A DNA stretch of 37,326 nt. It comes from an uncultured bacterium (lineage in GTDB: Bacteria > Patescibacteriota > Microgenomatia > UBA1400 > CAYNFZ01). The position numbers were made by a program, and so were the translations under genes. The notes beneath the pieces are model-generated. The model did no database searches. It had not been told where the DNA came from and saw nothing but the letters and a program-made list of their open reading frames with translations. This document shows positions 18,038 through 28,187 of the stretch, piece after piece (within the stretch, counting starts at the first letter, position 1; the number at the start of each line of letters is the position of its first letter). The DNA is taken from contig CBDUQH010000001.1 of NCBI GenBank assembly GCA_965369335.1, positions 1 through 37,326 on the forward strand, read 5' to 3'.

Positions 18038-18943
18038 AGGAATACTTTATCAGTTTGGAATGGAATGTTGAATAAGGAATCTGGTAGGTGTTGAAACAAT
18101 TGCCCCCGATAGCAAACGCTTGTTCAATTCGCTCAAACTACCGGGGGTTTTAAAAATCTGCACAGGCTTCTATTTCTAATAAACATACAAGGTGATGCTG
18201 GTGTTGTACTGCGAGCATGTGCAGACCCGCAAGCGGGCAAAAATAATTCACTAGTTGGAAAATTTTGAGAGAGGAGTCAGTTAATATCTTTGGGCTGAAA
18301 CCAACTCCCGGGGCTATTGATCGGTTACAACCTATGTTTGTTTGACAACTCTCAGGTTATAACAAGCTCCTTGTCCGGATTTTCAAAGTGAGGATAGAGC
18401 AAGCTTGGCATTTACCACCAATCGCTCGTGCGCAGCTTGCTCTTTACGATAGGTAAAAGAACTTGAGTTGATGTTGCGCAAACACTAAATCGCTTATTTC
18501 CCAACACAGCGAATATTAAAGTGCTTGATTGGTAGGTTACGTTAGTGAGAGAAAAACTACAATAAGTAGTTGGTGTGGATTCGAGTCAAACTCGATTTAA
18601 AAGCGGTATGGCAAAGTCTAACTTTGCTTTTGTATTGAGCAACTTTAACAGAGGGAGATTTGTTGATTTGAAGTTGGGAAAAACGAAACTGTGTGGTGTG
18701 GGTCGGGTGTTGCTGAGTCTTTGTTGAAGGAACCGATATTTGACCCACACTACACAGTGGAAGATTGCACAAGTGTCTTCTGCTTTGAAGTAGTGATTTC
18801 AAAGAGAAGGGGAGGCTCTTGTGATCTTTTACAAGAGCCTTTAGAGGAATGTAAAAACTTCATTCAAGTGTGCAGGGTGAGTTGATTATATTTTTGATGT
18901 TTTTGGATGTAAAGGGAGAGATTGGTGTGTTTGGTGTGGGGCA

Positions 18944-18985
18944 TCCCGGGGAGATTGATCCCGGGGAAGTTTTCCCCGGGGAGGA
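18944..18985. repeat. Three tandem copies of a ~15-nt unit containing palindromic CCCGGGG
   Basis: TCCCGGGGAGATTGA / TCCCGGGGAAGTTTT / CCCCGGGGAGGATTT, starting at 18944, 18959 and 18974. Confidence 0.8.
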
Positions 18986-19515
18986 TTTTGGGCATGAAAA
19001 ACCCCACCACGTGTCTGTGTTTGTTAGATGTGTATTTTTGCACTAGGGGTTAAGTTTGGGACACGGGTGGGGAGTATTTATCGCTTGCTTGTCGGCTAGC
19101 CCGGGTTTGGTTGTGTAACCAAAGGGCATCGTGACTAGCTACATTGGCAAGCGGGAATATGGGGGCAAGGTTGTGCTGCGGAAGGTCTGCAAAGACTTGG
19201 GTCTTATTGGCTTCAGATTGCGCTTGAGGGCGCGGGTTTGTACTTATGTTGAACTTTTTGCAAAAGGTGGTCTATCTGGTTAGGTCACCGTGTTTTCGGA
19301 TGGGTTTACTGATGTTTGTAATACTGGTGCAGACCTTCCGCCCGACAAAGTCGGCAAAGTTGGGGAGGAGGGTTCTCGAACCGATAAAAGGTGGTTGAGA
19401 ACCCTCGAAGCGCATTGGAAAAGGATAAATGCGGACCCGCTCACAAGGCCAGTGAAACGGGTCTTCCATATGAAAAAAATGAGTTTCAATTTCTCTTTAT
19501 TCGCATAAAAGCAAA

Positions 19516-19543
19516 CTGGTTCTTCTGACCAGCGCTTTTTTTT
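19516..19543 (+). terminator. Possible intrinsic terminator
   Basis: CTGGT-tcttctg-ACCAG, then CGC and TTTTTTTT. The stem is short, so confidence is moderate only. Confidence 0.4.
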
Positions 19544-19713
19544 ACGACTTTTTGTCGAGAAATTCCGCCATGATCATCACCACCGATTATTTTGCCCATT
19601 GCCACCGTCATTTGAACGACTTGGAGGGCCAGTGCCGTGATAGAGAAAGGGATACATAGGAAACCATCCTTTAATATGGATTTTCGAGAAGTGCAACACT
19701 TGTTTTGATTTAA

Positions 19714-19869
19714 GGATTGCACCTTTGGAAAGATATAAAGTCGGTGGGGGGTGAAATGTGAAGTTTTGCGATCCTGAATATCGACTACTTCGCCAAATAC
19801 TATGTGGTATATGTCTTCGTGTTGGTTTTAGGATGACGAAATTTGTATATCCTTTCAGAGGTGCAATCC
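19714..19869 (+). other. 156-nt element closed by a 24-bp imperfect inverted repeat
   Basis: GGATTGCACCTTTGGAAAGATATA (19714-19737) pairs with TATATCCTTTCAGAGGTGCAATCC (19846-19869). That gives 21 Watson-Crick pairs, 2 G-U pairs valid only on the + strand, and 1 A-C mismatch. Confidence 0.7.
19765..19841 (+). repeat. Structured motif copy 1 (stem ATCCTGAA / TTTAGGAT, flanked by ..TTTTGCG and GACGAAA)
   Basis: Shares CTGAATATCG and TTT-AG-[GA]-ATGACGA with copy 2. The stem shows compensatory changes relative to copy 2. Confidence 0.6.
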
Positions 19870-19906
19870 GTTGCTTGTCAATGTTTGTCTATACACAACT
19901 CAATAC

Positions 19907-19954
19907 TTTTCGATTCTGAATATCGGCATAAATGCCGGTTTCAGAATGACGAGA
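19907..19954 (+). repeat. Structured motif copy 2 (stem ATTCTGAA / TTCAGAAT, inner hairpin CGGCA-taaa-TGCCG)
   Basis: Same flanks as copy 1 (CTTTTCG ... GACGAGA) and an 8-bp perfect stem. Confidence 0.6.
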
Positions 19955-20557
19955 TTGGATTGTGTGTAGATTTGTTAGCGATATTTTAATGAGCGTGTTA
20001 CTAAAGGTGTAACGGAGGGATAAATTGTAAGGTGTGTTTTAAATTAGCTTGTGCGAGAGTTTGGATAGCGTGGTCAAAGAGAGAGGGAGAAAAATCGTCG
20101 GTATGTATTTTTTTTATCTCTTGGCCACTAGAAGTCTCCGCACAAGCTTCTTGCAATAAATTTTTTTGGTCCATTCCAAAGTTGTATTGGAGGGACACTA
20201 AGTAGGGAAAACCCAAAGGCTAACCACGCATGATTAGCCTTGGTCCGATGTACTACTTCACAACATTCAGCGACATGGTTTTACGAGTTGTTGAAGTGTA
20301 CATCGCTTCGAGAAATGATACTGGTAACAGTGTTATATTGTTTCATAATAGTCCTTTCTGACTATATAAACGGATGTATAACACGGACACTGGAATAGCG
20401 ACCTAAATAACCATTCCGGTGTCAGTGTTTTAGCAATATAACTGGGTTTTCCCGATTTAAGGTACGGGTGTAACTATAGTGGGCGAGATAAAGATGAGCA
20501 ATGTATAAGAGGTGTGTAAAAATTAGGCCGATAGAGTTGTTTAATGTGTTTTATAGG

Positions 20558-20586
20558 TTGATACCTTGGGAAATGGGGGTTAAAAT
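20558..20586 (+). promoter_or_regulatory. Sigma70-type promoter, TTGATA-N17-TAAAAT
   Basis: TTGATA at 20558-20563 and TAAAAT at 20581-20586. The spacer ends in GGGGGT, as in the other island promoters. Confidence 0.5.
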
Positions 20587-20681
20587 AGGCGTTTGCTAAG
20601 ATTCACATTTTGCAATTTATGCGGGGTGAACCGAAAGCAATTTTTGCCCTTTTAGCCCTTTACCATAAGGAATGGAGAAGA

Positions 20682-21674
20682 ATGGATTTACAGACTTTGT
20701 ATCTGCAGTATCTGGTGTTGTTGTGTTCAAGAGATAAAAACACGATAACAAAGGCTTTTGGTTATGTTGGTAGTATTTCTCAATTTCAGGTTGAGCTGGT
20801 TGTGGAAAGAGACTCGCGGGAATTCGCTTTATATTTCCGTTTTTTTGATAAAGCTGATAGTGAAGTCAATCAATACAACTTGAGTCTGTCCAAGGCTTCA
20901 CTTTCAGAAGCAGTTTTGATCTGGGGAATAGCTGATCAAATGACCAAACTTGATGTGGTAGTGCTGAGTGAGGTGGTGGCGCGTATTCATCACACTGTGG
21001 TTGAATCTGTTAGTGATGATTTACGACGAGCTTTGCCGGTGGGTTTTCAAGTTGCTCTTGATCGGGTTTTTGATCGCTTTGACAAAGATGTCTTGCTGGA
21101 AAAAGTATTGAATCATAGAGGATTGTTTGATCTTTATGATTTGGATGTCTTTTTTGTAAAGTTTGAACACCTGTGGAATGCAGAAGTTTTTGAACCTCTA
21201 AAGATCACTAATCCTCAAAAGTTTATGGCTTTCATTGATGGCTCATGTTTGCTCTTGAAGGATGCTGGGTTGGAAGAGATATTTCACCGTTTTGCTCAGT
21301 ACAAGCAGATATCATATGTCACTGAACTAAAGATTATGGTGGAATTTATCTGTATGCTTGACGATTTCCGTAGAACACCGCCTGTCTTGGTTTTGTGGTG
21401 GACATTGCAGAAGTTTGGGTTAGTCGAAGTAGGTGATCATATTTTTGATTCAGAGTACTTTGGTCCGGTAACTCAGATTTTAGATGATGTTCTAATTTCT
21501 TCTGAAATTTACGTTGTTGAAACAGATATGCCAACGGTATCACCTAAGGTCTCAAGTACAGCAAGCCGTGTTGAACTGACTGAAGACGAAATTGTGCCAA
21601 AGGTACAATCAGACGATGATACAGCCAAATTGTTATTATATTTGGATACGAATGAGACTGCTGCTGTTGGTTAG
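20682..21674 (+). CDS. Island protein 1, acidic cytoplasmic hypothetical
   Basis: The ORF is open from TTG 20610. ATG 20682 is preferred because AAGGAATGGAGA lies just upstream and the promoter sits at 20558-20586. No signal peptide or TM segment. Confidence 0.6.
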   Translation: MDLQTLYLQYLVLLCSRDKNTITKAFGYVGSISQFQVELVVERDSREFALYFRFFDKADSEVNQYNLSLSKASLSEAVLIWGIADQMTKLDVVVLSEVVARIHHTVVESVSDDLRRALPVGFQVALDRVFDRFDKDVLLEKVLNHRGLFDLYDLDVFFVKFEHLWNAEVFEPLKITNPQKFMAFIDGSCLLLKDAGLEEIFHRFAQYKQISYVTELKIMVEFICMLDDFRRTPPVLVLWWTLQKFGLVEVGDHIFDSEYFGPVTQILDDVLISSEIYVVETDMPTVSPKVSSTASRVELTEDEIVPKVQSDDDTAKLLLYLDTNETAAVG

Positions 21675-21704
21675 ACCTCAAACTCCATATTACATGGGCA
21701 AAAA

Positions 21705-21741
21705 AGCCCCCGAAACTACAAATGTAGCTAGGGGGTTTTTT
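21705..21741 (+). terminator. Intrinsic terminator
   Basis: GCCCCC...GGGGG followed by TTTTTT. Confidence 0.65.
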
Positions 21742-21897
21742 GGTAGTTGCTGATATGAGTATGTTTTGATTGTGACCAATTTATGACAGATATGTCGATG
21801 AAGGGTTATTTTTTTGACTTGAGGGTATAATTGGGGTGTTTTGTCCAAGCTTGGTGAGATTTGGATCGAGTTTGGATGCACTTTGACAACCAACATG

Positions 21898-21933
21898 GCT
21901 TCAACTGAGTGAGTGGGGATACTCAATTGAAGC
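21898..21933 (+). promoter_or_regulatory. Leader hairpin upstream of island gene 2
   Basis: GCTTCAACTGAGT-gagtgggga-TACTCAATTGAAGC with one C-A mismatch and a G-rich loop. It lies 30 nt before the ATG. Confidence 0.5.
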
Positions 21934-21963
21934 TGTGTATATATAGAGTAAAAGGACAAAATA

Positions 21964-23238
21964 ATGTCGAAGCAGAACGTTTTAATGCAATTACCGTTTA
22001 AAGCTTTAAAAAAGTATAACTGGGATGATAAGTATTATTCTGGCAAAGCTTCACTGCGATTGGTGAGTCAATACAATCGGCTTTGGTTGGTGCGAGTAAT
22101 CTCCAACAAAAGAGGTGACTTTGAAGTTGGACGATTGAGTCTAGTCAACGCACATCCTGTGTTTGATTTGTATGGATTTATTCGAGTGATGGGATTGATG
22201 CGGCTAGTGTTGACAGAAGTGTTTACGGCGTCGCCCTTTGTTTGGCAGACGGATGCTGATCAAGAAGATGGTGGTTTGCCGAAAAAAGATCAAAGCTGGT
22301 TGATTGGGCTAGGTGAGTTGGCGTCTATTTTAGAAAACATGATTGCTTCTAGAATTGGTGCCGATCAACGACTTAGCCTTGATGAATTGTATGATCCTGA
22401 AGAGCTGACCACATTTGTTGAGAATTGGATTAATTGGGGGTTCTTGCCTGTTTGGCTGCCCAAAGTTTGGGATCAGCTTGACCCAGATGTTTCGGTTCTT
22501 GGTGAGCTTTACAACAAGCAAATGGTAAACAGATTGATGCTTGAGCAGATAAGTTTTTTTGATCAGATGCCTTTGTGGTTGAACTGGCAAGATTGGGAAG
22601 ATGCAGATTCACCAACTATCTTGCAACAAGAAGGTGAATATCTGAAATGGATGATTTTTACCACGGCTAAACAGTTGAAGATGAGTTTTGCCTATGGTAG
22701 TTCTGAGTGGTATCTGGCGACACTAATGTCTGTTTATACCGAAATGGTGCTGATGCGAACTGTTGATTTAGAGGCTCGTATTTCTGGGAAGTTGTTTAAA
22801 TTTGCTGTTCGGATAGCAGATCATTTTGAGTGTGAGCTGATCGAGCTGCTTGAAATTTTGCGTCCATATTGGCAGCATCAATATGATGTTGATTGGGTCG
22901 TTGAAGAGTGGAGTCTGCCAGACCAGAAGAATTGGGAGGGTACTTTTGGATACTTAAATTACCAGTTTGTTTCAGGCAGGTTTGATGCCAGTGGTGAGAG
23001 TTTGGACGATCTTCCCCCTAAATTGGTTGAAGCTTTGGGTGAATATCCTTGTCAGATTGGGATAGAAGCTTGGCGAATATGGAAATATGTGTTGCGCCAA
23101 TTTGGGGATAGGCTTACCAACGATCAAGCTGAGTACTTGAAGTTATGGGTGATTGTGCTTGGTGGTGCAAGACACGATTGCTTTCTATATGACAATATGT
23201 CACTGGTGATGGATGAGCTTGATGTAGCTCACGCCTAA
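21964..23238 (+). CDS. Island protein 2, acidic Trp-rich cytoplasmic hypothetical (424 aa)
   Basis: Long ORF with AAAAGGA 6 nt upstream of the ATG. No recognised domain. Confidence 0.7.
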   Translation: MSKQNVLMQLPFKALKKYNWDDKYYSGKASLRLVSQYNRLWLVRVISNKRGDFEVGRLSLVNAHPVFDLYGFIRVMGLMRLVLTEVFTASPFVWQTDADQEDGGLPKKDQSWLIGLGELASILENMIASRIGADQRLSLDELYDPEELTTFVENWINWGFLPVWLPKVWDQLDPDVSVLGELYNKQMVNRLMLEQISFFDQMPLWLNWQDWEDADSPTILQQEGEYLKWMIFTTAKQLKMSFAYGSSEWYLATLMSVYTEMVLMRTVDLEARISGKLFKFAVRIADHFECELIELLEILRPYWQHQYDVDWVVEEWSLPDQKNWEGTFGYLNYQFVSGRFDASGESLDDLPPKLVEALGEYPCQIGIEAWRIWKYVLRQFGDRLTNDQAEYLKLWVIVLGGARHDCFLYDNMSLVMDELDVAHA

Positions 23239-23276
23239 TATGGTATGAATTTTGACTCTATATGTGGTTGTTTATT

Positions 23277-23313
23277 GACCCCTTTGGCCTAGAGCTGGAG
23301 GGGTTGTTTTTTT
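23277..23313 (+). terminator. Intrinsic terminator (ACCCCT...AGGGGT + T-run)
   Basis: The same sequence recurs at 26828-26864 and 28120-28156. Confidence 0.7.
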
Positions 23314-23362
23314 AAGGATGGTGCTTGTAAGCAGAATTGGAAGTGTTGTTGAATCTATGATA

Positions 23363-23391
23363 TTGAGTGTGGGGTCTTTATGGGTTAGAAT
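23363..23391 (+). promoter_or_regulatory. Sigma70-type promoter, TTGAGT-N17-TAGAAT
   Basis: TTGAGT at 23363-23368 and TAGAAT at 23386-23391. Confidence 0.5.
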
Positions 23392-23452
23392 TTGGTGCTT
23401 TGGCGTTGCCTGTTGGCGGCAGTTAAAGCGCACTTTGACATCTGGTAGTTTA

Positions 23453-23493
23453 GGTTTCACATAGCGAGCTGGGGGAGTTGGCTATGTGAAATC
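23453..23493 (+). promoter_or_regulatory. Leader hairpin (13-bp stem, 15-nt G-rich loop)
   Basis: GGTTTCACATAGC-gagctgggggagttg-GCTATGTGAAATC, including one G-U pair valid on the + strand. It is followed by CTAAGTTTAGA and RBS AAGGA. Confidence 0.65.
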
Positions 23494-23520
23494 TAAGTTT
23501 AGAGATAAGGATAATGAAAG

Positions 23521-24543
23521 ATGTTTAATGCGTATTTACGATTGCTTCAGGAAGAAAGTGGTATGAATTTGGGGCAGATGCGGAATCATATTGAGCAAGA
23601 GCATGAAAAGGCTCTTGCTGCGTTGACTCCAAAAATCTTGCGTCAAAGTAGTCTTCGTCAGGTTGTGTTTCACGGTTTGGATGGTGAAGTGGAAACTGGA
23701 GAGCGATGTTTAGTGGTCTACGTGGTTTTGGGACGAATTTGTTTTGGTGCAGTTAAACATCCTGATGATTTGTGGAAAAGCCGTGGGCAAACCGAATTTG
23801 GTGAAGTTAAGTCTTACTTCGACATGATTCGTCACTGGAAGCTGATGTCGAAGATTAACACAATGTCTCAAGAAATGTTTGATTTGATTGGTGAGGCAAT
23901 TAGCGTGGGAGGAGATCCAGAAGATCAACAGAAATTGATCAATATGGTTGGGCGTAAAGCCTTTGATGAAGCCATGATTATCGATAAAGAAACTGTGGAT
24001 CAATATTTGGAACTATTGGTTGACGGTCTTGTGTGGGGCACACAGTTGTCGCGTGAAGTTCATCGTGGAATGCTAAAGTGGCAAGATCGGTTTGAAGAGT
24101 ATCGCCAATATGCTGTGTTAGATCCTGATGAATGGCTGGAGCGGCTGGCGTTTACTTGTGGTGATGATGCCATTGAACTGATGTCCACGTTGGCTGATAC
24201 ACTCAGTGGTAAGGACGAAGAAGAAATGCAGCTATTTTTTACCTCCCTTAGCCAAGCCGTAGAGCGTGGTTTTGGATATGTTTTCGATTGTGGGTTTGCA
24301 TCGCGTGAAGATGTGTCTGTGGCAATGGCTCACTATTGTGGGTTGCTATGGACATTGATTCGAAGTGATATAGTGTATGAACTGCTGGAATTTTCGGATA
24401 CAGAATCGTTGGATATTGTGGTCATGGATACTATTTATGACTACTATGGTGAGGAATCGTTGGGAAGCAAAGAGCAATGTCGGCAATTGTGTGAGACGTT
24501 GTGGAAAAACCACGAATCTTTGCTGGGAAATCATGACGAATAA
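23521..24543 (+). CDS. Island protein 3 (paralogue of 27063-28079)
   Basis: 340 aa. Shares KWQDRFEEYRQY, GFGYVFDCGFA and NHESLL with the 27063 product. Confidence 0.8.
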   Translation: MFNAYLRLLQEESGMNLGQMRNHIEQEHEKALAALTPKILRQSSLRQVVFHGLDGEVETGERCLVVYVVLGRICFGAVKHPDDLWKSRGQTEFGEVKSYFDMIRHWKLMSKINTMSQEMFDLIGEAISVGGDPEDQQKLINMVGRKAFDEAMIIDKETVDQYLELLVDGLVWGTQLSREVHRGMLKWQDRFEEYRQYAVLDPDEWLERLAFTCGDDAIELMSTLADTLSGKDEEEMQLFFTSLSQAVERGFGYVFDCGFASREDVSVAMAHYCGLLWTLIRSDIVYELLEFSDTESLDIVVMDTIYDYYGEESLGSKEQCRQLCETLWKNHESLLGNHDE

Positions 24544-24573
24544 TCCTTGGTAATCTACTACCTGTATGTTAAT

Positions 24574-24610
24574 GACCCCTTTGGACGATGTGCCTGAGGG
24601 GTTGTTTTTT
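24574..24610 (+). terminator. Intrinsic terminator
   Basis: ACCCCT..AGGGGT followed by TGTTTTTT. Confidence 0.65.
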
Positions 24611-24626
24611 GTGTGTACCCTATAGT

Positions 24627-24655
24627 TTGAGATTGGGGTTGTTATGGGGTAAAAT
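24627..24655 (+). promoter_or_regulatory. Sigma70-type promoter, TTGAGA-N17-TAAAAT
   Basis: TTGAGA at 24627-24632 and TAAAAT at 24650-24655. The spacer ends in ATGGGG. Confidence 0.5.
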
Positions 24656-24700
24656 CGGTGTCTGTTCGGCACTTTAAAAGATTTCTTGTGAAGGAGAACT

Positions 24701-24748
24701 AGGACACAAATAGCTAGAGGCTACTTGGCCTTTGGCTATTTGTGTCCT
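24701..24748 (+). promoter_or_regulatory. Leader hairpin (14-bp perfect stem; different sequence, same position)
   Basis: AGGACACAAATAGC...GCTATTTGTGTCCT, followed by the same CTAAGTTTAGA box and an AGGAG RBS. Confidence 0.65.
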
Positions 24749-24773
24749 AAGTTTAGACAGGAGAATGAAGGTA

Positions 24774-25640
24774 ATGAAAGTTTTGCATCGTGAGTATGTA
24801 AGTGGGTTTGGGTTTCTTGGCAAACATGTTGCTGTTGAGATTATCCTAAGTCTTCCAGAAACCGGAGGGCGTTATGAGTTGGCGATAAAGTATGGTAAGC
24901 AAGGTGGAGTCACTGAGACTTACAAGTATGCTGACGTTGATTTTTGTATCATCGTGTTTAGAATGCTTCTGACCTACAATCGACAGCTGAAGGTCAGTGA
25001 AGATGCTGCTTATGCAAGCGTGTATTCTTCTTTGTTGCAATTCGGTAGTTATGACAAGGTTGATCCGAATTTAGTTAATGCTTTGGGGCTTGAACCTTTT
25101 GAGGTTATTAATCAGCCTTTCGAAGGTTGGGAAGAAGAAGTGATTAATGAACAAGCCTTGGCTGGGAACTTTGATCTACACGCGGTTAGTATTTTGGTTG
25201 ACCATGGGATGTTGAAGCTTCGAGAAGAACTTGAAAGTAAGTTAGCAGAAGCTATGGCTGATTTTGAAAGTTGGCTTGATGCCACTGGATTAAATAACTT
25301 GTTTGACCTATTGGAGCCAAGCGAAGTGTTTTCCATCTTTGCGACTGAACGGGCAGCTTTGATCAGAACTTCATTTGTTATTTGGGACAAAGGTGAAGAA
25401 ATTCATGCTAATCAATCTAGTCATGTGATTGCTTTGGCTGTGTTGATTCGGTGCAATAGTGCCGTTTCCTTTCATGGTTCAAAACAAAATCTCAAAAGTA
25501 AAGCTAACTCTCTTGGGATTTTAATGATGCTGCCTTTCGTTTGGTCTAGCTATGATCTTCCCGGTGATCAGAATATTGATCAAATCGTGCAAGAAACGTT
25601 GGATTTTCTGGATTTACTGAAGCAATCTAGCGAACTGTAG
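24774..25640 (+). CDS. Island protein 4, acidic cytoplasmic hypothetical
   Basis: The ORF is open from TTG 24732, which would put the start inside the leader hairpin. ATG 24774 is preferred (AGGAG at 24759-24763); ATG 24765 is an alternative. Confidence 0.65.
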   Translation: MKVLHREYVSGFGFLGKHVAVEIILSLPETGGRYELAIKYGKQGGVTETYKYADVDFCIIVFRMLLTYNRQLKVSEDAAYASVYSSLLQFGSYDKVDPNLVNALGLEPFEVINQPFEGWEEEVINEQALAGNFDLHAVSILVDHGMLKLREELESKLAEAMADFESWLDATGLNNLFDLLEPSEVFSIFATERAALIRTSFVIWDKGEEIHANQSSHVIALAVLIRCNSAVSFHGSKQNLKSKANSLGILMMLPFVWSSYDLPGDQNIDQIVQETLDFLDLLKQSSEL

Positions 25641-25662
25641 AACTACAAAATCCTATGTGCCG

Positions 25663-25702
25663 ATAACCCTTTTGGAGAAAATTCCGAAAGGGTTATTTTT
25701 TT
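25663..25702 (+). terminator. Intrinsic terminator
   Basis: ATAACCCTTT / AAAGGGTTAT 10-bp stem followed by T6. Confidence 0.7.
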
Positions 25703-25788
25703 GGCTTGAAAGGCTATAATTGGGTGGATTTGTCAGGCTACTTTTGTTTGCAAAAGATAGTTTGAGTTCTTTAACAGACAAAGAGGCA

Positions 25789-25829
25789 GGTTTCACATAG
25801 CGAACTGGGGGAGTTGGCTATGTGAAATC
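25789..25829 (+). promoter_or_regulatory. Leader hairpin (same sequence as the 26994 copy)
   Basis: GGTTTCACATAGC-gaactgggggagttg-GCTATGTGAAATC. A TATAAT box lies at 25715-25720 upstream. Confidence 0.65.
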
Positions 25830-25856
25830 TGAACAAATAGTAGATTGGATAATCTA

Positions 25857-26798
25857 ATGAAGTTTTTTGGTTTGTACCCTGTAGTGGGTAAGTGTAATGT
25901 TCCTGACAATGTAATATATTGGCCTCCAAAGATACCTTTGTTTTCAGAGAAAACCTGGGCTGGTTTGGGTAGCTTTGATACTAAGGTAATGATGCAATTT
26001 TTGCTCCAAGTTGTGGATGGTGAGCTGTGCATTGTTGCCCAGAAGGATGGTGATTTTTCAGGTGAGGTGTATTTGCGTTATCGTGATAAGCGTTTTAATA
26101 ACCCCTTAAACTTCTTCGACCTAATTCGGGTTTGTGATGCAGCTAATGCTAGTAAGCGGATAAGCCCCACGCTGTTTATGTCATTGGTTTTTTGGCTGTG
26201 TAAGGGTGATGAACACAGCGGTGCGCTTGCTTTAGAACAAGTCTTGCAGAACAAGGATTGGATGGCAGATGACATTAGTCGGCAAGAATTGGACTATTAT
26301 CATTTGTTGTTGGTCCAAGGTTTGGTTGAAGGTGTGGATCTTGTGGAGTCGAAAGCGCGTTTGGCTTCATACATTGACCTCGAAGAAACTTTGAAGGAGA
26401 TGAAGAGGTTTGGGGTGATGAATAAAGCTGAAGTGCTTAATATTGCTGAATTTGTGTCGGAAACTTATGACCAAATCATTTGGCGTTTTGAAGGGTTTTT
26501 GCAAACTCGTCAGGTCATTATACAAAAAGCAATATTGTCTGGGTTCAAATGGGCTTATGCACGGGGGTTGTATTTTGATCCCAAATTGGCACATTTTGCT
26601 CATTTTAACGCTATGTTGTGGATATTGTTGGAGAACGACGTTGATTTGGAAACGGCTCAAGAACTGGTGGCGGAGTTTTTGGTGGATGAACGAGGAATGG
26701 GTGATAGCCACGCGAACTTTTTTGCAGGGTTGGGGCAATTTCGGATTGGCTACTATAACCACTATGGTTGGGAAGTGCCGGTGCCGGCTGATTCTTAG
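25857..26798 (+). CDS. Island protein 5 (distant paralogue of proteins 3 and 6)
   Basis: The track starts at TTG 25845; ATG 25857 is an alternative. Three motifs align with proteins 3 and 6: FFDLIRV, YHLLLVQGLVEGVDL and GFKWAYARGLYF. Confidence 0.7.
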   Translation: MKFFGLYPVVGKCNVPDNVIYWPPKIPLFSEKTWAGLGSFDTKVMMQFLLQVVDGELCIVAQKDGDFSGEVYLRYRDKRFNNPLNFFDLIRVCDAANASKRISPTLFMSLVFWLCKGDEHSGALALEQVLQNKDWMADDISRQELDYYHLLLVQGLVEGVDLVESKARLASYIDLEETLKEMKRFGVMNKAEVLNIAEFVSETYDQIIWRFEGFLQTRQVIIQKAILSGFKWAYARGLYFDPKLAHFAHFNAMLWILLENDVDLETAQELVAEFLVDERGMGDSHANFFAGLGQFRIGYYNHYGWEVPVPADS

Positions 26799-26827
26799 CT
26801 TGTTTCTCTCTCTTTGTTTAGTTGATT

Positions 26828-26864
26828 AACCCCTTTGGCCTAGAGCTGGAGGGGTTGTTTTTTT
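26828..26864 (+). terminator. Intrinsic terminator
   Basis: AACCCCT...AGGGGTT followed by GTTTTTTT. Confidence 0.7.
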
Positions 26865-26903
26865 GTGGATGTTCTTGCCGAGAAGCTATTTGAATCTAAG
26901 GGT

Positions 26904-26932
26904 TTGAGTGTAGAGGCTTTATGGGTTAGAAT
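26904..26932 (+). promoter_or_regulatory. Sigma70-type promoter, TTGAGT-N17-TAGAAT
   Basis: TTGAGT at 26904-26909 and TAGAAT at 26927-26932. Confidence 0.5.
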
Positions 26933-26993
26933 TTGGTGCTTTGGCGTTGCCTGTTGGCGGCAGTTAAAGCGCACTTTGACATCTGGTAGTTTA

Positions 26994-27034
26994 GGTTTCA
27001 CATAGCGAACTGGGGGAGTTGGCTATGTGAAATC
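26994..27034 (+). promoter_or_regulatory. Leader hairpin
   Basis: Same as 23453-23493 except for one loop base. Confidence 0.65.
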
Positions 27035-27062
27035 TAAGTTTAGAGATAAGGATTAGCTCATT

Positions 27063-28079
27063 ATGTCAGGAAGTGATTTTTTGGTAATTTTTAAAGCTGA
27101 TGCAGAAATGACATTGCGCGAAATGCAAGACTTTTTTCGCCAAAAGCATGATGAAGTACAAGAGCTTTTGAATCCAGAAATCTTGCGTCAGTGTTCCCCC
27201 AGGACGGTTAAGTTGGAATCTGAGAATGGCGATTTGATCGAAAAGGAAGTTGTTATCATCGTTTACAAGGTTAAGGGTCAAATTCGTATAGATGCCGTTG
27301 AAAGAGCTGATGACTTGATCGATCTGAAACATCCAATGAACTTTGGTGAGATTGACTCGTTTTTCGATGCGATCCGCCATTGGACTTTGTTGTGTCAAAT
27401 CAATGAAGTGTCGCAAGAAGTGTTTGATCTGATTAATGAAGCCATTAGTGTGGAAGGTAGTCCGGAAGTACGTGATCAGTTGGTACGTAGAGTGGGGCAA
27501 ACATCGTTTGATTTGGCGATGTATGTTGACACGTTGACGATGAATCAATACCTGACACTTTTGGAGGAAGGGGTGGCTTTAGGTGCCCAATTGTCCCTTG
27601 AAGTTCATTGGGGAAGGATTAAATGGCAAGATCGGTTTGAAGAGTATCGCCAGTACGGAGTGTTAAGCCCAGAAGAATGGCAGGAGCGAGTGGAATTTAC
27701 CACAAGCGATGAAGTCATTGGTTTGATGTCTGAAGTGGCTGCTTTTGTTGCCGGTGATGATGGAGTGTTTGATCATGCTTTTGAAGCGTTGAATCTTGCC
27801 TGTGGTCTTGGGTTTGGGTATGTTTTCGATTGTGGTTTTGCCCAGCGTGAAGATGTTTCTTTGTACACAAAGCTTCTTATTGGTTTGTGGGAAACTGTGA
27901 ATAACAGTGATTTTGTCTCAGAGATTTTTAGTGTCCTTGATTCAAAAGATCAAGGTTTGGCTCTTGCTGGAGTGATGGTGGAGTATTTTGGTACGGGTTC
28001 GATTGGGGAAGTATCAGAATTCCTGAAACAAGCATTGTTACTTTGGGAGAACCATGAATCTTTGTTGGTAGAGGATTAA
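27063..28079 (+). CDS. Island protein 6 (paralogue of 23521-24543)
   Basis: 338 aa, collinear with protein 3 along its whole length. Confidence 0.8.
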   Translation: MSGSDFLVIFKADAEMTLREMQDFFRQKHDEVQELLNPEILRQCSPRTVKLESENGDLIEKEVVIIVYKVKGQIRIDAVERADDLIDLKHPMNFGEIDSFFDAIRHWTLLCQINEVSQEVFDLINEAISVEGSPEVRDQLVRRVGQTSFDLAMYVDTLTMNQYLTLLEEGVALGAQLSLEVHWGRIKWQDRFEEYRQYGVLSPEEWQERVEFTTSDEVIGLMSEVAAFVAGDDGVFDHAFEALNLACGLGFGYVFDCGFAQREDVSLYTKLLIGLWETVNNSDFVSEIFSVLDSKDQGLALAGVMVEYFGTGSIGEVSEFLKQALLLWENHESLLVED

Positions 28080-28119
28080 TCCTTAGAAGTTCGTTGACTC
28101 TAACTATCAGAATGTTATT

Positions 28120-28156
28120 AACCCCTTTGGCCTAGAGCTGGAGGGGGTGTTTTTTT
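28120..28156 (+). terminator. Intrinsic terminator (third copy of the ACCCCTTTGGCCTAGAGCTGGAGGGG element)
   Basis: Lies between the convergent island gene 6 and the RND gene. Confidence 0.7.
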
Positions 28157-28187
28157 GTAGGGACGTCCCTTGAAAGATTGGGTTGGG

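What the first reader, a model, noticed from the sequence alone, without database searches (positions are those of the whole stretch)
21898..27034. Structure-conserved leader hairpin with compensatory changes upstream of five of the island genes
A 13-14-bp hairpin sits 28-40 nt before the start codon of genes 2-6.
- Genes 3, 5 and 6: stem GGTTTCACATAGC / GCTATGTGAAATC.
- Gene 4: stem AGGACACAAATAGC / GCTATTTGTGTCCT. Only the ATAGC/GCTAT core is kept; the rest changes but stays fully paired.
- Gene 2: stem GCTTCAACTGAGT / TACTCAATTGAAGC.

Four of the five loops carry a G-run (CTGGGGGAG or GTGGGGA).

In genes 3, 4 and 6 the hairpin is followed by the same box, CTAAGTTTAGA, and then the RBS.

The G-U pair in the 23453, 25789 and 26994 stems works only on the + (mRNA) strand.

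Position-conserved, sequence-variable pairing is the classic signature of a functional RNA element. It could be a protein-binding site, a processing site, a translational control element or a ribosome standby site (the loop resembles an SD sequence). It is not followed by a U-run, so it is not an attenuator terminator.
Basis: seen in the sequence. Interest (0 to 1): 0.7.

Follow-up and report, generated by a model that had tools for sequence, protein, structure and literature searches.

The report
Conserved mRNA leader hairpin of orphan genes
Five neighbouring orphan genes in an uncultured candidate-phyla-radiation bacterium, and three related orphan genes in two relatives, each carry a long RNA hairpin just ahead of the ribosome-binding site whose pairing is conserved while its sequence changes; it is a real, previously uncatalogued mRNA control element of a familiar general kind whose exact job is still unknown.

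Summary
They are 18-27 bp helices (-21 to -40 kcal/mol), ending 23-25 nt before the ATG of genes 2-6.

- **Independent versions.** Only three exist in the window, because genes 3, 5 and 6 share one near-identical copy.
- **Pairing is conserved.** Across those versions, 12 of 18 common pairs changed on both sides and stayed paired (0/500 shuffles).
- **Relatives.** Two related contigs, found through the neighbouring RND pump gene, hold three more orphan genes. Each has an unrelated-sequence 22-23 bp hairpin at a similar, somewhat greater distance from the ATG (about 33-40 nt).
- **Strand.** G·U pairs favour the mRNA strand 21 to 2.
- **Specificity.** Comparable upstream hairpins occur at 8 of 9 orphan genes and at none of about 66 other genes.
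- **Not known.** No Rfam family matches, and the hairpins are not terminators.

The full leader reads: sigma-70-like promoter, 5' hairpin, GCACNTTGANA box, two-turn hairpin, SD, ATG.

The best reading is a structure-specific post-transcriptional element, most likely an RNase III entry or processing site. An RNase J roadblock is the close rival. The mechanism is inferred, not shown.

This is a new member of a known kind, of moderate interest.

The parts
21893..21938 (+). Leader hairpin of gene 2 (12 bp, C×A mismatch, 6 bp, 8-nt loop AGUGGGGA)
   Evidence: Fold -21/-22 kcal/mol, z -4.4. Three G·U pairs on the + strand against 1 on the - strand.
23449..23497 (+). Leader hairpin of gene 3 (16-17 bp, G×G mismatch, 4 bp, GGGGG loop)
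   Evidence: Fold -28.6 kcal/mol on the + strand against -16.6 on the - strand. CM R1 score 79 bits.
24696..24754 (+). Leader hairpin of gene 4 (22 continuous bp plus a 5-bp extension, ACUU loop)
   Evidence: Fold -40.2 against -30.7 kcal/mol, z -9.1. Against g3, 4 lower-stem pairs are changed on both sides.
25787..25831 (+). Leader hairpin of gene 5. 25788-25830 is 43/43 identical to the gene 6 copy, inside a gene-2-class leader.
   Evidence: D3. blastn. g2/g5 leader alignment 63% identical.
26990..27038 (+). Leader hairpin of gene 6
   Evidence: Fold -28.6 against -20.5 kcal/mol.
21878..21888 (+). GCACNTTGANA box (GCACTTTGACA) between the 5' hairpin and the long hairpin, gene 2. The same box is at 23430-23440 (g3), 24669-24679 (g4, GCACTTTAAAA) and 26971-26981 (g6). 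A degenerate copy TTCTTTAACA is at 25767-25776 (g5).
   Evidence: Six matches in the window against 1.15 expected. In 23 fetched loci it occurs only in the orphan-gene leaders of L017 and L021/L022. The pattern was defined post hoc.
23394..23433 (+). 5'-proximal hairpin 1 of the gene 3 leader (GGUGC...UGUU...GCAC). Equivalents are at 26935-26974 (g6), about 24658-24672 (g4), 21843-21877 (g2) and about 25734-25764 (g5).
   Evidence: Folds. It starts within a few nt of the inferred transcription start.
23363..23391 (+). Sigma-70-like promoter TTGAGT-17-TAGAAT of gene 3. Equivalents are at 26904-26932 (g6), 24627-24655 (g4, TTGAGA-17-TAAAAT) and 20558-20586 (g1). For g2 and g5 only the -10 TATAAT is clear, at 21826-21831 and 25715-25720.
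   Evidence: Promoter scan. Each promoter sits directly after the preceding terminator. These are consensus matches only; no transcription-start data exist.
23276..23313 (+). Intrinsic terminator after gene 2. Family members are at 24574-24612 (after g3), 26827-26864 (after g5) and 28122-28156 (after g6). Unrelated terminators are at about 21700-21742 (after g1) and 25662-25703 (after g4).
   Evidence: D2. Terminator scan.
20682..28079 (+). Six acidic orphan genes: g1 20682-21674, g2 21964-23238, g3 23521-24543, g4 24774-25640, g5 25857-26798, g6 27063-28079. Each is its own transcription unit.
   Evidence: ORFs. No Pfam, PADLOC or PHROG family. Only self and paralog hits in the 5.8-billion and 1.84-billion protein libraries. 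pI 4.3-5.0.

Best explanation
**What it is.** The hairpin is a cis-acting RNA stem-loop in the 5' untranslated leader of a fast-evolving family of acidic orphan proteins. The family is found in a Patescibacteria (CPR) lineage.

**Layout of each gene.** Each gene is its own transcription unit with this order:
- the intrinsic terminator of the previous gene;
- a sigma-70-like promoter;
- a short 5'-proximal hairpin;
- a single-stranded GCACNTTGANA box;
- the long hairpin;
- about 10 nt, then the SD and the ATG.

**What is conserved.** The long hairpin keeps its shape rather than its sequence: a near-perfect helix of about two turns (18-23 bp), on the mRNA strand, just 5' of the ribosome-binding site. 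Its reader is therefore probably a structure-specific factor.

**Mechanism I commit to (inferred, not shown).** The helix is a double-strand-specific RNase III entry or processing site. Cleavage removes the protected 5' end (hairpin 1) and either matures the mRNA or opens it to RNase J. This sets the expression level of the whole family.

**Shown:** the hairpin, the covariation, the sense-strand bias, the restriction to this gene family, and conservation across three genomes.

**Inferred:** the transcription starts, and any RNase involvement.
For: **Structure.**
- MFE is -21 to -40 kcal/mol, with z from -4.4 to -9.1.
- Four of the five hairpins are among the five most stable in the window.

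**Covariation.**
- 12 of 18 pairs changed on both sides (0/500 shuffles), and 91% of cells are paired against 21-44% when slid.
- RNAalifold gives the same helix.

**RNA rather than DNA.**
- The sense strand is 2.5-13 kcal/mol more stable in every case.
- G·U pairs are 21 sense against 2 antisense over six independent hairpins.

**Conservation beyond the window.**
- L017:7843-7894(-) is 22 bp, L021:5696-5753(-) is 23 bp, and L021:4371-4456(-) is 22 bp.
- Each sits upstream of an orphan gene convergent with the same RND pump gene.
- Each has the same promoter / hairpin 1 / box / hairpin 2 order.
- The proteins are weakly linked: L021_332 to L017_350 at E 7.7e-5, and L021_332 to g2 at E 0.005. 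All are acidic.

**Specificity.** Upstream hairpins of -26 kcal/mol or better occur at 8 of 9 orphan genes and at 0 of about 66 other genes.

**Helix length.** It is 18-23 bp in all six versions, about two A-form turns. That is the substrate size of RNase III (established knowledge).

**Enzymes available.** CPR genomes retain rnc, rnj and pnp as their core RNases (PMC12641178). RNase III cleaves uninterrupted duplexes and acts in the rnc and pnp leaders (PMC3997798).

**Sequence independence.**
- The loops are not conserved: GGGGG, AGUGGGGA, ACUU, ACUC, an 8-nt loop and an 11-nt loop. This argues against a sequence-specific reader.
- A g3/g6-type hairpin sits in a g2-class leader at g5, so the hairpins are interchangeable modules.

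**Not a terminator**, and **no Rfam family**.
Against: - There are no transcript-end or cleavage data. The promoters are consensus matches, and their total number is no higher than in shuffles.
- No rnc gene lies on this 37-kb contig, and the rest of the genome could not be searched.
- Mismatch positions within the helices are not conserved, so no common cleavage-site geometry can be named.
- A stable helix alone would also block RNase J. The length argument is suggestive only, with six data points.
- g1 lacks the hairpin.
- g3, g5 and g6 share identical sequence. The g3 and g6 leaders are 95-100% identical over 164 nt while their coding regions are about 55% identical. Recent gene conversion therefore inflates the apparent conservation.
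- The 5-way alignment was registered by hand, with N-padded loops.
Confidence: 0.35

Rival explanations
1. The hairpin is a passive mRNA stabiliser or roadblock. Sitting just 5' of the SD, it stops the 5'-to-3' exonuclease RNase J (or an endonuclease scanning from the 5' end). Together with the initiating ribosome it protects the coding region, as 5' stem-loops and STAB-SD do in E. coli and Bacillus.
For: - Only the structure is conserved.
- The distance to the ATG is constant at 23-25 nt in the window, at the 5' edge of a ribosome footprint.
- CPR genomes retain RNase J (PMC12641178).
- 5' stem-loops and SD-like stabilisers are established (PMC3997798; PMC4113751).
- Two of the six loops are SD-like G-runs.
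Against: - Known 5' stabilisers act at the very 5' end, and hairpin 1 already occupies that place.
- Helices of 18-23 near-perfect base pairs are far longer than a roadblock needs.
- The G-run is absent from 4 of the 6 versions.
Confidence: 0.25
2. The hairpin is a specific operator for a protein. That protein is either the orphan proteins themselves (autoregulation by cognate protein-hairpin pairs) or one shared regulator that also reads the GCACNTTGANA box.
For: - Hairpin type tracks protein subfamily. The only three detectably related proteins (g3, g5, g6) share the identical hairpin, even though the rest of g5's leader is of the g2 class.
- A conserved linear box accompanies the hairpin in three genomes.
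Against: - All family proteins are strongly acidic (pI 4.3-5.0, net charge -13 to -37; L021_133 is pI 5.6, net -5). They have no nucleic-acid-binding domain.
- Loops and stems share no sequence across the six versions, so a single shared regulator cannot read them.
- The subfamily correlation rests on three genes, and gene conversion is evidently active here.
Confidence: 0.1
3. This is a DNA-level palindrome. It would be an operator for a dimeric repressor, a cruciform, or a recombination site (attC- or REP-like). In that case the 'compensatory' changes arise from intrastrand templated repair rather than from RNA selection.
For: - Perfect inverted repeats with variable spacers.
- Regulatory modules in the island are being homogenised by recombination.
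- The genes are cassette-like orphans.
Against: - G·U pairs are 21 sense against 2 antisense. These would be A·C mismatches on the other strand, and the asymmetry has no meaning in duplex DNA.
- Arms of 18-23 bp are far longer than operator half-sites.
- The hairpins lie about 50-100 nt downstream of the promoters.
- There is no GTTRRRY / RYYYAAC core, no integrase, no RAYT and no transposase in the window.
- Every gene has its own promoter, unlike integron cassettes.
Confidence: 0.05
4. This is a selfish small palindromic repeat (MITE-, Correia- or REP-like). It has inserted into leaders and has no function of its own.
For: - The 43-nt unit in g5 is identical to g6's, with sharp borders exactly at the stem ends and unrelated flanks.
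- Correia elements likewise sit in leaders and are RNase III substrates (PMC2649163).
Against: - There are no target-site duplications.
- There are no copies outside orphan-gene leaders in the window or in about 100 kb of related loci.
- Orientation and distance to the ATG are always the same.
- The g4 and g2 versions share flanking homology with g3 but have diverged by paired substitutions.
- Relatives have hairpins at a similar position (about 33-40 nt before the ATG) with unrelated sequence.
- Pattern scans of the genome, metagenome and viral collections gave no true copies.
Confidence: 0.05
5. This is a processive antitermination RNA, like the put RNA of phage HK022 or a boxA-boxB nut site. 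On this reading the two leader hairpins plus the linear box modify RNA polymerase so that it reads through the strong terminators between island genes.
For: - Two hairpins plus a conserved linear box lie downstream of a promoter, in a region packed with intrinsic terminators.
- The resemblance to put and nut is from my own knowledge and was not tested.
Against: - Every gene has its own promoter, so read-through is not needed.
- put and nut elements depend on conserved sequence, which is absent here.
- No Rfam antitermination family matched.
Confidence: 0.04

Closest known systems
RNase III-processed leader hairpins (E. coli rnc and pnp leaders, phage T7 early R sites, lambda N leader)
   Same: - A long, nearly perfect intramolecular duplex of about two helical turns in a 5' leader.
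- Recognised by shape rather than sequence.
- Controls mRNA fate (PMC3997798; the T7 and lambda cases are from my own knowledge).
   Different: - Cleavage is not demonstrated here.
- There is no conserved internal loop as in T7 sites.
- The element is attached to a whole family of orphan genes in a CPR bacterium rather than to an RNase gene or a phage operon.
- It is preceded by a separate 5' hairpin and a conserved linear box.
Correia repeat-enclosed elements (CREE/NEMIS) of Neisseria
   Same: - A repeated inverted-repeat element found in leaders of several genes.
- It folds as an RNA hairpin that RNase III binds and cleaves or protects.
- It can change expression of the adjacent gene (PMC2649163).
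   Different: - CREEs are 100-155-bp mobile elements with TA target duplications and hundreds of dispersed copies, and they can carry promoters.
- Here the unit is about 45-60 nt with no duplication.
- It is found only in one gene family's leaders, always in the same orientation and position.
- It diverges by compensatory substitution.
5'-terminal stabiliser stem-loops (ompA, papA, aprE) and STAB-SD of cry3A
   Same: - A structure or SD-like sequence in the 5' UTR that protects mRNA from 5'-end-dependent decay (PMC3997798; PMC4113751).
- Two of the six loops are SD-like.
   Different: - Those elements act at or near the 5' end and are short.
- The element here is internal, being the second hairpin, and is twice as long.
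- Its G-run is not conserved.
REP/BIME extragenic palindromes
   Same: Short repeated palindromes that form RNA hairpins and affect mRNA stability.
   Different: - REPs lie mostly 3' of genes, occur in hundreds of copies, and are linked to RAYT transposases through a GTAG motif.
- None of this is seen here (my own knowledge of REPs; window data).

Membership tests
RNase III substrate (leader processing site) | Uninterrupted or nearly uninterrupted RNA duplex of about 20 bp or more on the transcribed strand | tested here: met
   The six independent versions have helices of 18-23 bp (up to 27 with the extension), and each folds better on the sense strand.
RNase III substrate (leader processing site) | Cleavage by RNase III in vitro or in vivo, giving staggered cuts with a 2-nt 3' overhang | not testable with these tools
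   No transcript-end data exist. An enzymatic assay or end-mapping is needed.
RNase III substrate (leader processing site) | An rnc gene present in the same genome | not testable with these tools
   Only this 37-kb contig is available, and both genome scans returned nothing. The literature says CPR genomes generally retain rnc (PMC12641178).
Intrinsic terminator / attenuator | GC-rich stem followed directly by a U-run | tested here: not met
   The terminator scan calls the six inter-gene terminators but none of the leader hairpins. No T-run follows any of them.
Any described RNA family (Rfam 15) | Covariance-model match at or near the gathering score | tested here: not met
   There are no hits at gathering score. 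At E≤1 the only hits are generic miRNA-precursor models, about 30 bits against 79-87 required.
MITE / Correia-like mobile palindrome | Target-site duplication and dispersed copies in varied contexts and orientations | tested here: not met
   - There are no flanking duplications.
- Copies occur only in island leaders, all in the same orientation.
- Exact-pattern scans of the genome, metagenome and viral collections found no true copy.
- The rest of this genome is unavailable.
Integron attC site | R''/R' core sites (RYYYAAC / GTTRRRY), position 3' of promoterless cassettes, and a nearby intI | tested here: not met
   - GTTTAGA fails the GTTRRRY consensus.
- The hairpins are 5' of genes that have their own promoters.
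- No integrase lies in the window.
Retron msr-msd upstream of a reverse transcriptase | The downstream gene encodes an RT with the YxDD motif | tested here: not met
   - There is no Pfam RT hit at E≤1.
- The only PADLOC RT hits are non-significant (E 0.005-0.03).
- There is no conserved YxDD motif in the g3/g5/g6 alignment.
5'-terminal mRNA stabiliser stem-loop | Stem-loop within a few nt of the transcript's 5' end | tested here: inconclusive
   With the inferred promoters, the long hairpin starts about 50-60 nt into the transcript and a different hairpin occupies the 5' end. It would become 5'-terminal only after processing in the box region. No transcription-start data exist.

The most novel reading that the evidence does not exclude
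The three-part leader (5' hairpin, GCACNTTGANA box, two-turn duplex) is a dedicated regulatory RNA class. It would mark one rapidly diversifying family of acidic orphan proteins in CPR bacteria for a common post-transcriptional switch. One possibility is a dsRNA-gated on/off control by RNase III or by an unknown dsRNA-binding factor, perhaps tied to the episymbiotic lifestyle. Under this reading the hairpin modules are exchanged between paralogs by recombination and track protein subfamilies.
Probability: 0.15. Interest if true: 0.65.

Novelty: new member of a known kind. Interest (0 to 1): 0.45.

Why it matters
- **Gene regulation in CPR bacteria.** Almost nothing is known about it in CPR/Patescibacteria. 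They cannot be grown alone and keep only a minimal RNase set (RNase III, RNase J, PNPase).
- **A testable handle.** A leader element that is held in shape across three genomes, while the proteins behind it diverge beyond recognition, gives a concrete way to study post-transcriptional control in these organisms.
- **The orphan family itself.** It shows that the orphan genes are a real, co-regulated, rapidly evolving family rather than annotation noise.
- **Module reuse.** The island shows regulatory modules (terminator, promoter, leader) being homogenised by recombination while the coding regions diversify.
- **Limits.** As a kind of element, a 5'-UTR stem-loop is familiar. The value is as a new, well-supported candidate motif, not as a new principle.

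Tried and rejected
**Database and collection searches**
- Rfam at gathering score and at E≤1 gave nothing real.
- An exact-pattern scan of GTDB genomes gave 0 hits.
- The metagenome pattern scan gave 16 hits, none related. Fifteen are one iteron-like repeat region from gut-type contigs and one is an unrelated palindrome.
- Viral contigs gave nothing by pattern or by protein profile.

**Protein searches**
- g3 finds only itself and g6 among 5.8 billion proteins.
- The g3/g5/g6 profile finds only itself plus a spurious coiled-coil protein among 1.84 billion representatives.
- A concatenated g1+g2+g4 query returned nothing, not even the proteins themselves, so that result is uninformative.
- Pfam, PADLOC, PHROGs and PDB sequence searches found no family.
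- The AlphaFold model of g3 has pLDDT 46, too poor for a fold search.
- hhalign between subfamilies was not significant.

**Models and motifs**
- The covariance model built from g3-g6 does not recover g2 (E 9.4). It weakly hits an unrelated hairpin at 34196.
- Testing the TTGACA of the box as a second promoter's -35 failed. No -10 lies at 16-18 nt in any leader.

**Readings rejected**
- Retron, attC, REP/RAYT and IS200-type readings were rejected; see the membership table.
- The more distant RND relatives L018, L019, L023, L024 and L025 have no orphan gene with a leader hairpin.
- The gene-poor stretch 18.1-20.6 kb holds no remnants of island genes or leaders.

Full report
**Context**

The window is a complete 37,326-nt contig at 42% GC. 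Every protein tested on it, including NadE and a UPF0182 protein, is a singleton at 90% identity in a 15-billion-protein collection. The best named relatives of its RND permease are 'Patescibacteria group bacterium' (49%) and Candidatus Dojkabacteria (41-44%). The organism is therefore an otherwise unsampled CPR lineage.

Between a gene-poor stretch (18.1-20.6 kb) and a convergent RND efflux operon lie six + strand ORFs:
- g1 20682-21674
- g2 21964-23238
- g3 23521-24543
- g4 24774-25640
- g5 25857-26798
- g6 27063-28079

What is known about these six proteins:
- None matches Pfam, PADLOC or PHROGs convincingly.
- g3 and g6 are 44% identical. g3 and g5 are 22% identical (E 9e-7). The others show no BLAST similarity to each other.
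- The g3/g5/g6 family has no relative outside this contig in libraries of 5.8 and 1.84 billion sequences.
- All six are strongly acidic, with pI 4.3-5.0.
- Their GC and GC3 do not differ from the flanking genes.

**The observation**

The five hairpins are real and larger than described.

| Gene | Coordinates | Helix | MFE (kcal/mol) |
|---|---|---|---|
| g2 | 21893-21938 | 12+6 bp | -21 |
| g3 | 23449-23497 | 16+4 bp | -28.6 |
| g4 | 24696-24754 | 22+5 bp | -40.2 |
| g5 | 25787-25831 | 15+4 bp | -28.0 |
| g6 | 26990-27038 | 16+4 bp | -28.6 |

- z-scores run from -4.4 to -9.1, and no shuffle folds as well.
- Four of the five are among the five most stable 60-nt hairpins of the window.
- Each stem ends 23-25 nt before the ATG, about 10 nt before the SD.
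- The g3, g5 and g6 copies are one 43-nt sequence, 98-100% identical. The window therefore contains three independent versions.
- None is followed by a U-run, and the terminator scan does not call them. It does call the true terminators between the genes.
- No Rfam family matches.

**Is the pairing conserved by selection?**

MAFFT misplaces g2's 3' arm, so I put the five hairpins in register by hand. The 18 shared stem positions on each side were kept and the loops were padded with N. That alignment is A7.

On A7:
- 91% of cells are standard pairs, against 21-44% when the 3' partner is slid by 1-3 columns.
- 12 of 18 pairs show a change on both sides, against 4.0±1.5 in 500 shuffles. No shuffle reaches the observed value.
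- RNAalifold, run blind on the same alignment, returns the same helix with 13 of 20 pairs compensatory.

Homology of the leaders:
- The g4 leader is homologous to the g3 leader over the promoter and the 3' flank, about 60% identical overall. Yet four lower-stem pairs are replaced on both sides.
- The g2 leader is homologous to the g5 leader (63% identical), but g5 carries the g3/g6 hairpin instead. The hairpins therefore behave as interchangeable modules at one position.

Caveats:
- There are few independent sequences.
- The alignment is fitted by hand.
- A covariance model built from g3-g6 does not find g2 (E 9.4).

**RNA or DNA?**

Every hairpin folds better on the sense strand. The paired values (sense / antisense, kcal/mol) are -21/-18.5, -28.6/-16.6, -40.2/-30.7, -28.0/-19.9 and -28.6/-20.5.

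I counted G·U pairs in the minimum-energy helices of the six independent versions, three in the window and three in relatives. This gives 21 on the sense strand against 2 on the antisense strand. Under strand symmetry, a split that uneven has a probability of about 3e-5 (my own sign test). This argues for selection on the mRNA. It argues against a duplex-DNA operator or a palindrome maintained by DNA repair.

**Relatives**

The orphan proteins have no searchable relatives, so I went through the neighbouring RND permease. I then fetched the contigs of its closest homologues.

- **L017** (ENA ERZ25074695; permease 64% identical) has one 350-aa orphan gene convergent with the pump, as g6 is.
- **L021** (Logan SRR26786821; permease 63% identical) has two orphan genes, of 332 and 133 aa.

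All three genes have the same layout:
- a sigma-70-like promoter;
- a 5' hairpin;
- a GCACNTTGANA box;
- a long sense-biased hairpin, then the SD and ATG.

The three hairpins are:
- L017:7843-7894(-), 22 bp, -33 kcal/mol
- L021:5696-5753(-), 23 bp, -36.7 kcal/mol
- L021:4371-4456(-), 22 bp, -34 kcal/mol

Their stems share no sequence with the window's hairpins. They end about 33-40 nt before the ATG, somewhat farther than the 23-25 nt in the window.

The proteins are weakly linked. L021_332 matches L017_350 at E 7.7e-5 and matches g2 at E 0.005. All are acidic. This is one fast-evolving family that has kept its leader architecture.

More distant relatives (L018, L019, L023, L024, L025) have neither the orphan genes nor such hairpins.

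**Specificity**

For every gene in the window and in the related loci, I folded the 150 nt upstream. A 60-nt hairpin of -26 kcal/mol or better is found at 8 of 9 orphan genes; g1 is the exception. It is found at none of about 66 other genes.

**Leader anatomy**

- **Promoters.** They follow directly after the preceding terminator: TTGAGT-17-TAGAAT for g3 and g6, TTGAGA-17-TAAAAT for g4, and TTGATA-17-TAAAAT for g1. g2 and g5 have a clear TATAAT only.
- **Hairpin 1.** It begins within a few nt of the inferred start (GGUGC...GCAC).
- **The box.** The box (GCACTTTGACA in g2, g3 and g6) occurs 6 times in the window against 1.15 expected. In 23 fetched loci it occurs only in the orphan leaders. The pattern was defined post hoc. 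Its TTGACA is not a usable -35, because no -10 follows at 16-18 nt in any leader.
- **Concerted evolution.** The g3 and g6 leaders are 92-100% identical over about 150 nt. The coding regions that follow drop to about 55% nucleotide identity within a few bases of the ATG. The terminators after g2, g5 and g6 are also 80-92% identical. Regulatory modules are therefore being homogenised by recombination while the genes diversify.

**Mechanism**

Shown:
- A sense-strand RNA helix is held in shape at a fixed place in the leaders of one gene family across three genomes.

Inferred:
- **Structure-specific reader.** Only the shape is conserved, and the loops differ: GGGGG, AGUGGGGA, ACUU, ACUC, an 8-nt loop and an 11-nt loop.
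- **RNase III as the candidate.** All six helices are 18-23 bp, about two A-form turns. That is the substrate size for RNase III (established knowledge; PMC3997798).
- **Enzymes available.** CPR genomes are reported to retain rnc, rnj and pnp as their core RNases (PMC12641178).
- **Role of hairpin 1.** It already occupies the position of a 5'-end protector.

I therefore favour an RNase III entry or processing site (confidence 0.35). It would remove the protected 5' end and either mature the message or expose it to RNase J. The close rival is a passive RNase J roadblock or stabiliser (0.25), by analogy with 5' stem-loops and STAB-SD (PMC4113751).

Less likely readings:
- **A cognate protein operator.** The hairpin type does track the g3/g5/g6 subfamily. 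But the proteins are highly acidic and lack nucleic-acid-binding domains (0.10).
- **A DNA palindrome.** Contradicted by the G·U asymmetry (0.05).
- **A selfish repeat.** There is no target duplication, and there are no copies elsewhere. Orientation and position are always the same (0.05).
- **A put/nut-like antiterminator** (0.04).

**Comparison and novelty**

The element works like RNase III-processed leader duplexes. Superficially it also resembles Correia elements of Neisseria (PMC2649163). It is not a member of any described family. It fails the tests for terminators, Rfam families, MITEs, attC sites and retrons.

It is a new, well-supported candidate cis-regulatory RNA motif of a familiar kind, restricted so far to one CPR lineage. 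Interest is moderate. A specialist would not be surprised that a leader hairpin exists. The conservation of structure behind unrecognisably diverged orphan proteins, and the modular exchange of regulatory cassettes, give a rare testable handle on post-transcriptional control in CPR bacteria.

Noticed in passing
window 18100-20600: About 2.5 kb has no ORF longer than 81 aa. It is dense in very stable + strand hairpins, for example 18696-18755 (-28 kcal/mol), the CCCGGGG repeats at 18941-19000, 18781-18840, 19356-19415 and 19901-19960. There is no Rfam hit, and no remnant of island genes or leaders. It could be a large non-coding RNA or decayed sequence.
   Followed up: partly
window 34196-34254: A 24-bp hairpin (-29.5 kcal/mol) has a G-rich loop (GGAAGGTGGTGAGGGGAG). 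It lies in a 640-nt intergenic region upstream of a secreted N-rich protein gene (33301-33918, - strand). It is the only non-island hit of the leader-hairpin model (E 0.13, not significant).
   Followed up: partly
window 23349-23512 vs 26890-27053, and terminators at 23270-23320, 26821-26871, 28113-28163: The promoter, leader and terminator modules of different island genes are 80-100% identical, while the adjacent coding regions are about 55% identical. The boundary is sharp and lies at the start codon. This is concerted evolution of regulatory cassettes. The 164-nt direct repeats could also mediate deletion or duplication of g3-g5.
   Followed up: yes
window 23466-23480 vs 23292-23306: The top of the g3/g5/g6 leader hairpin (GAGCTGGGGGAGTTG) matches the 3' arm of the island terminator (GAGCTGGAGGGGTTG) at 13 of 15 positions. 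Three of 300 shuffles reach this. It may reflect common origin or a 5'/3'-UTR interaction. The significance is marginal.
   Followed up: partly
window 11280-11440: The unrelated 453-aa gene at 11439 has the same promoter style (TTGACT-17-TAAAAT preceded by GGGG). It also has a GUGC...GCGCAC hairpin followed by a box match, GCACCTTTACA (11364-11374), but no long hairpin. The 5' hairpin plus box may therefore be a more general leader feature of this organism.
   Followed up: partly
window 20592-20681 (g1 leader): g1 lacks the long hairpin. It does hold a possible relic, ATTCACAT...GGGG-TGAAC, resembling the g3-type arms and G-run. It folds no better than shuffles (z -0.27).
   Followed up: partly
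window 23514-23528: A four-codon mini-ORF (ATG AAA GAT GTT TAA) overlaps the g3 start codon out of frame. It is not conserved in g6.
   Followed up: no
window g2 21838-21846 vs 21954-21962, and g4 24682-24689 vs 24756-24764: In the g2 and g4 leaders, sequences flanking the hairpin can pair with the SD region: GUUUUGUCC with GGACAAAAU, and UUUCUUGU with ACAGGAGA. This may be SD sequestration enclosing the hairpin. It is not seen in g3 or g6.
   Followed up: no
L021 3422-3956: Between the RND gene and the 133-aa orphan gene lies a roughly 500-nt stretch. It holds repeated GTTCGAACGAAG(A/T)GAGAA units about 100 nt apart, with CAGTAA(T/A)CAGT micro-repeats between them. Its nature is unknown.
   Followed up: no
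L001-L016 (metagenome contigs): The exact-pattern hits are unrelated to the finding. Fifteen share a conserved iteron-like block of TTCACATAGC / GCTATGTGAAAT-type repeats, probably a plasmid or phage origin. L011 is a lone perfect palindrome.
   Followed up: partly
window g3 residues 95-131 and g6 residues 77-135: There are weak, non-significant PADLOC reverse-transcriptase hits (E 0.005-0.03). Separately, a motif of the form hydrophobic-FD-x-x-R follows an N-terminal beta-meander. It is visible in g2, g3, g5, g6 and the L017 protein. The motif hints that the island proteins are remote paralogs.
   Followed up: partly
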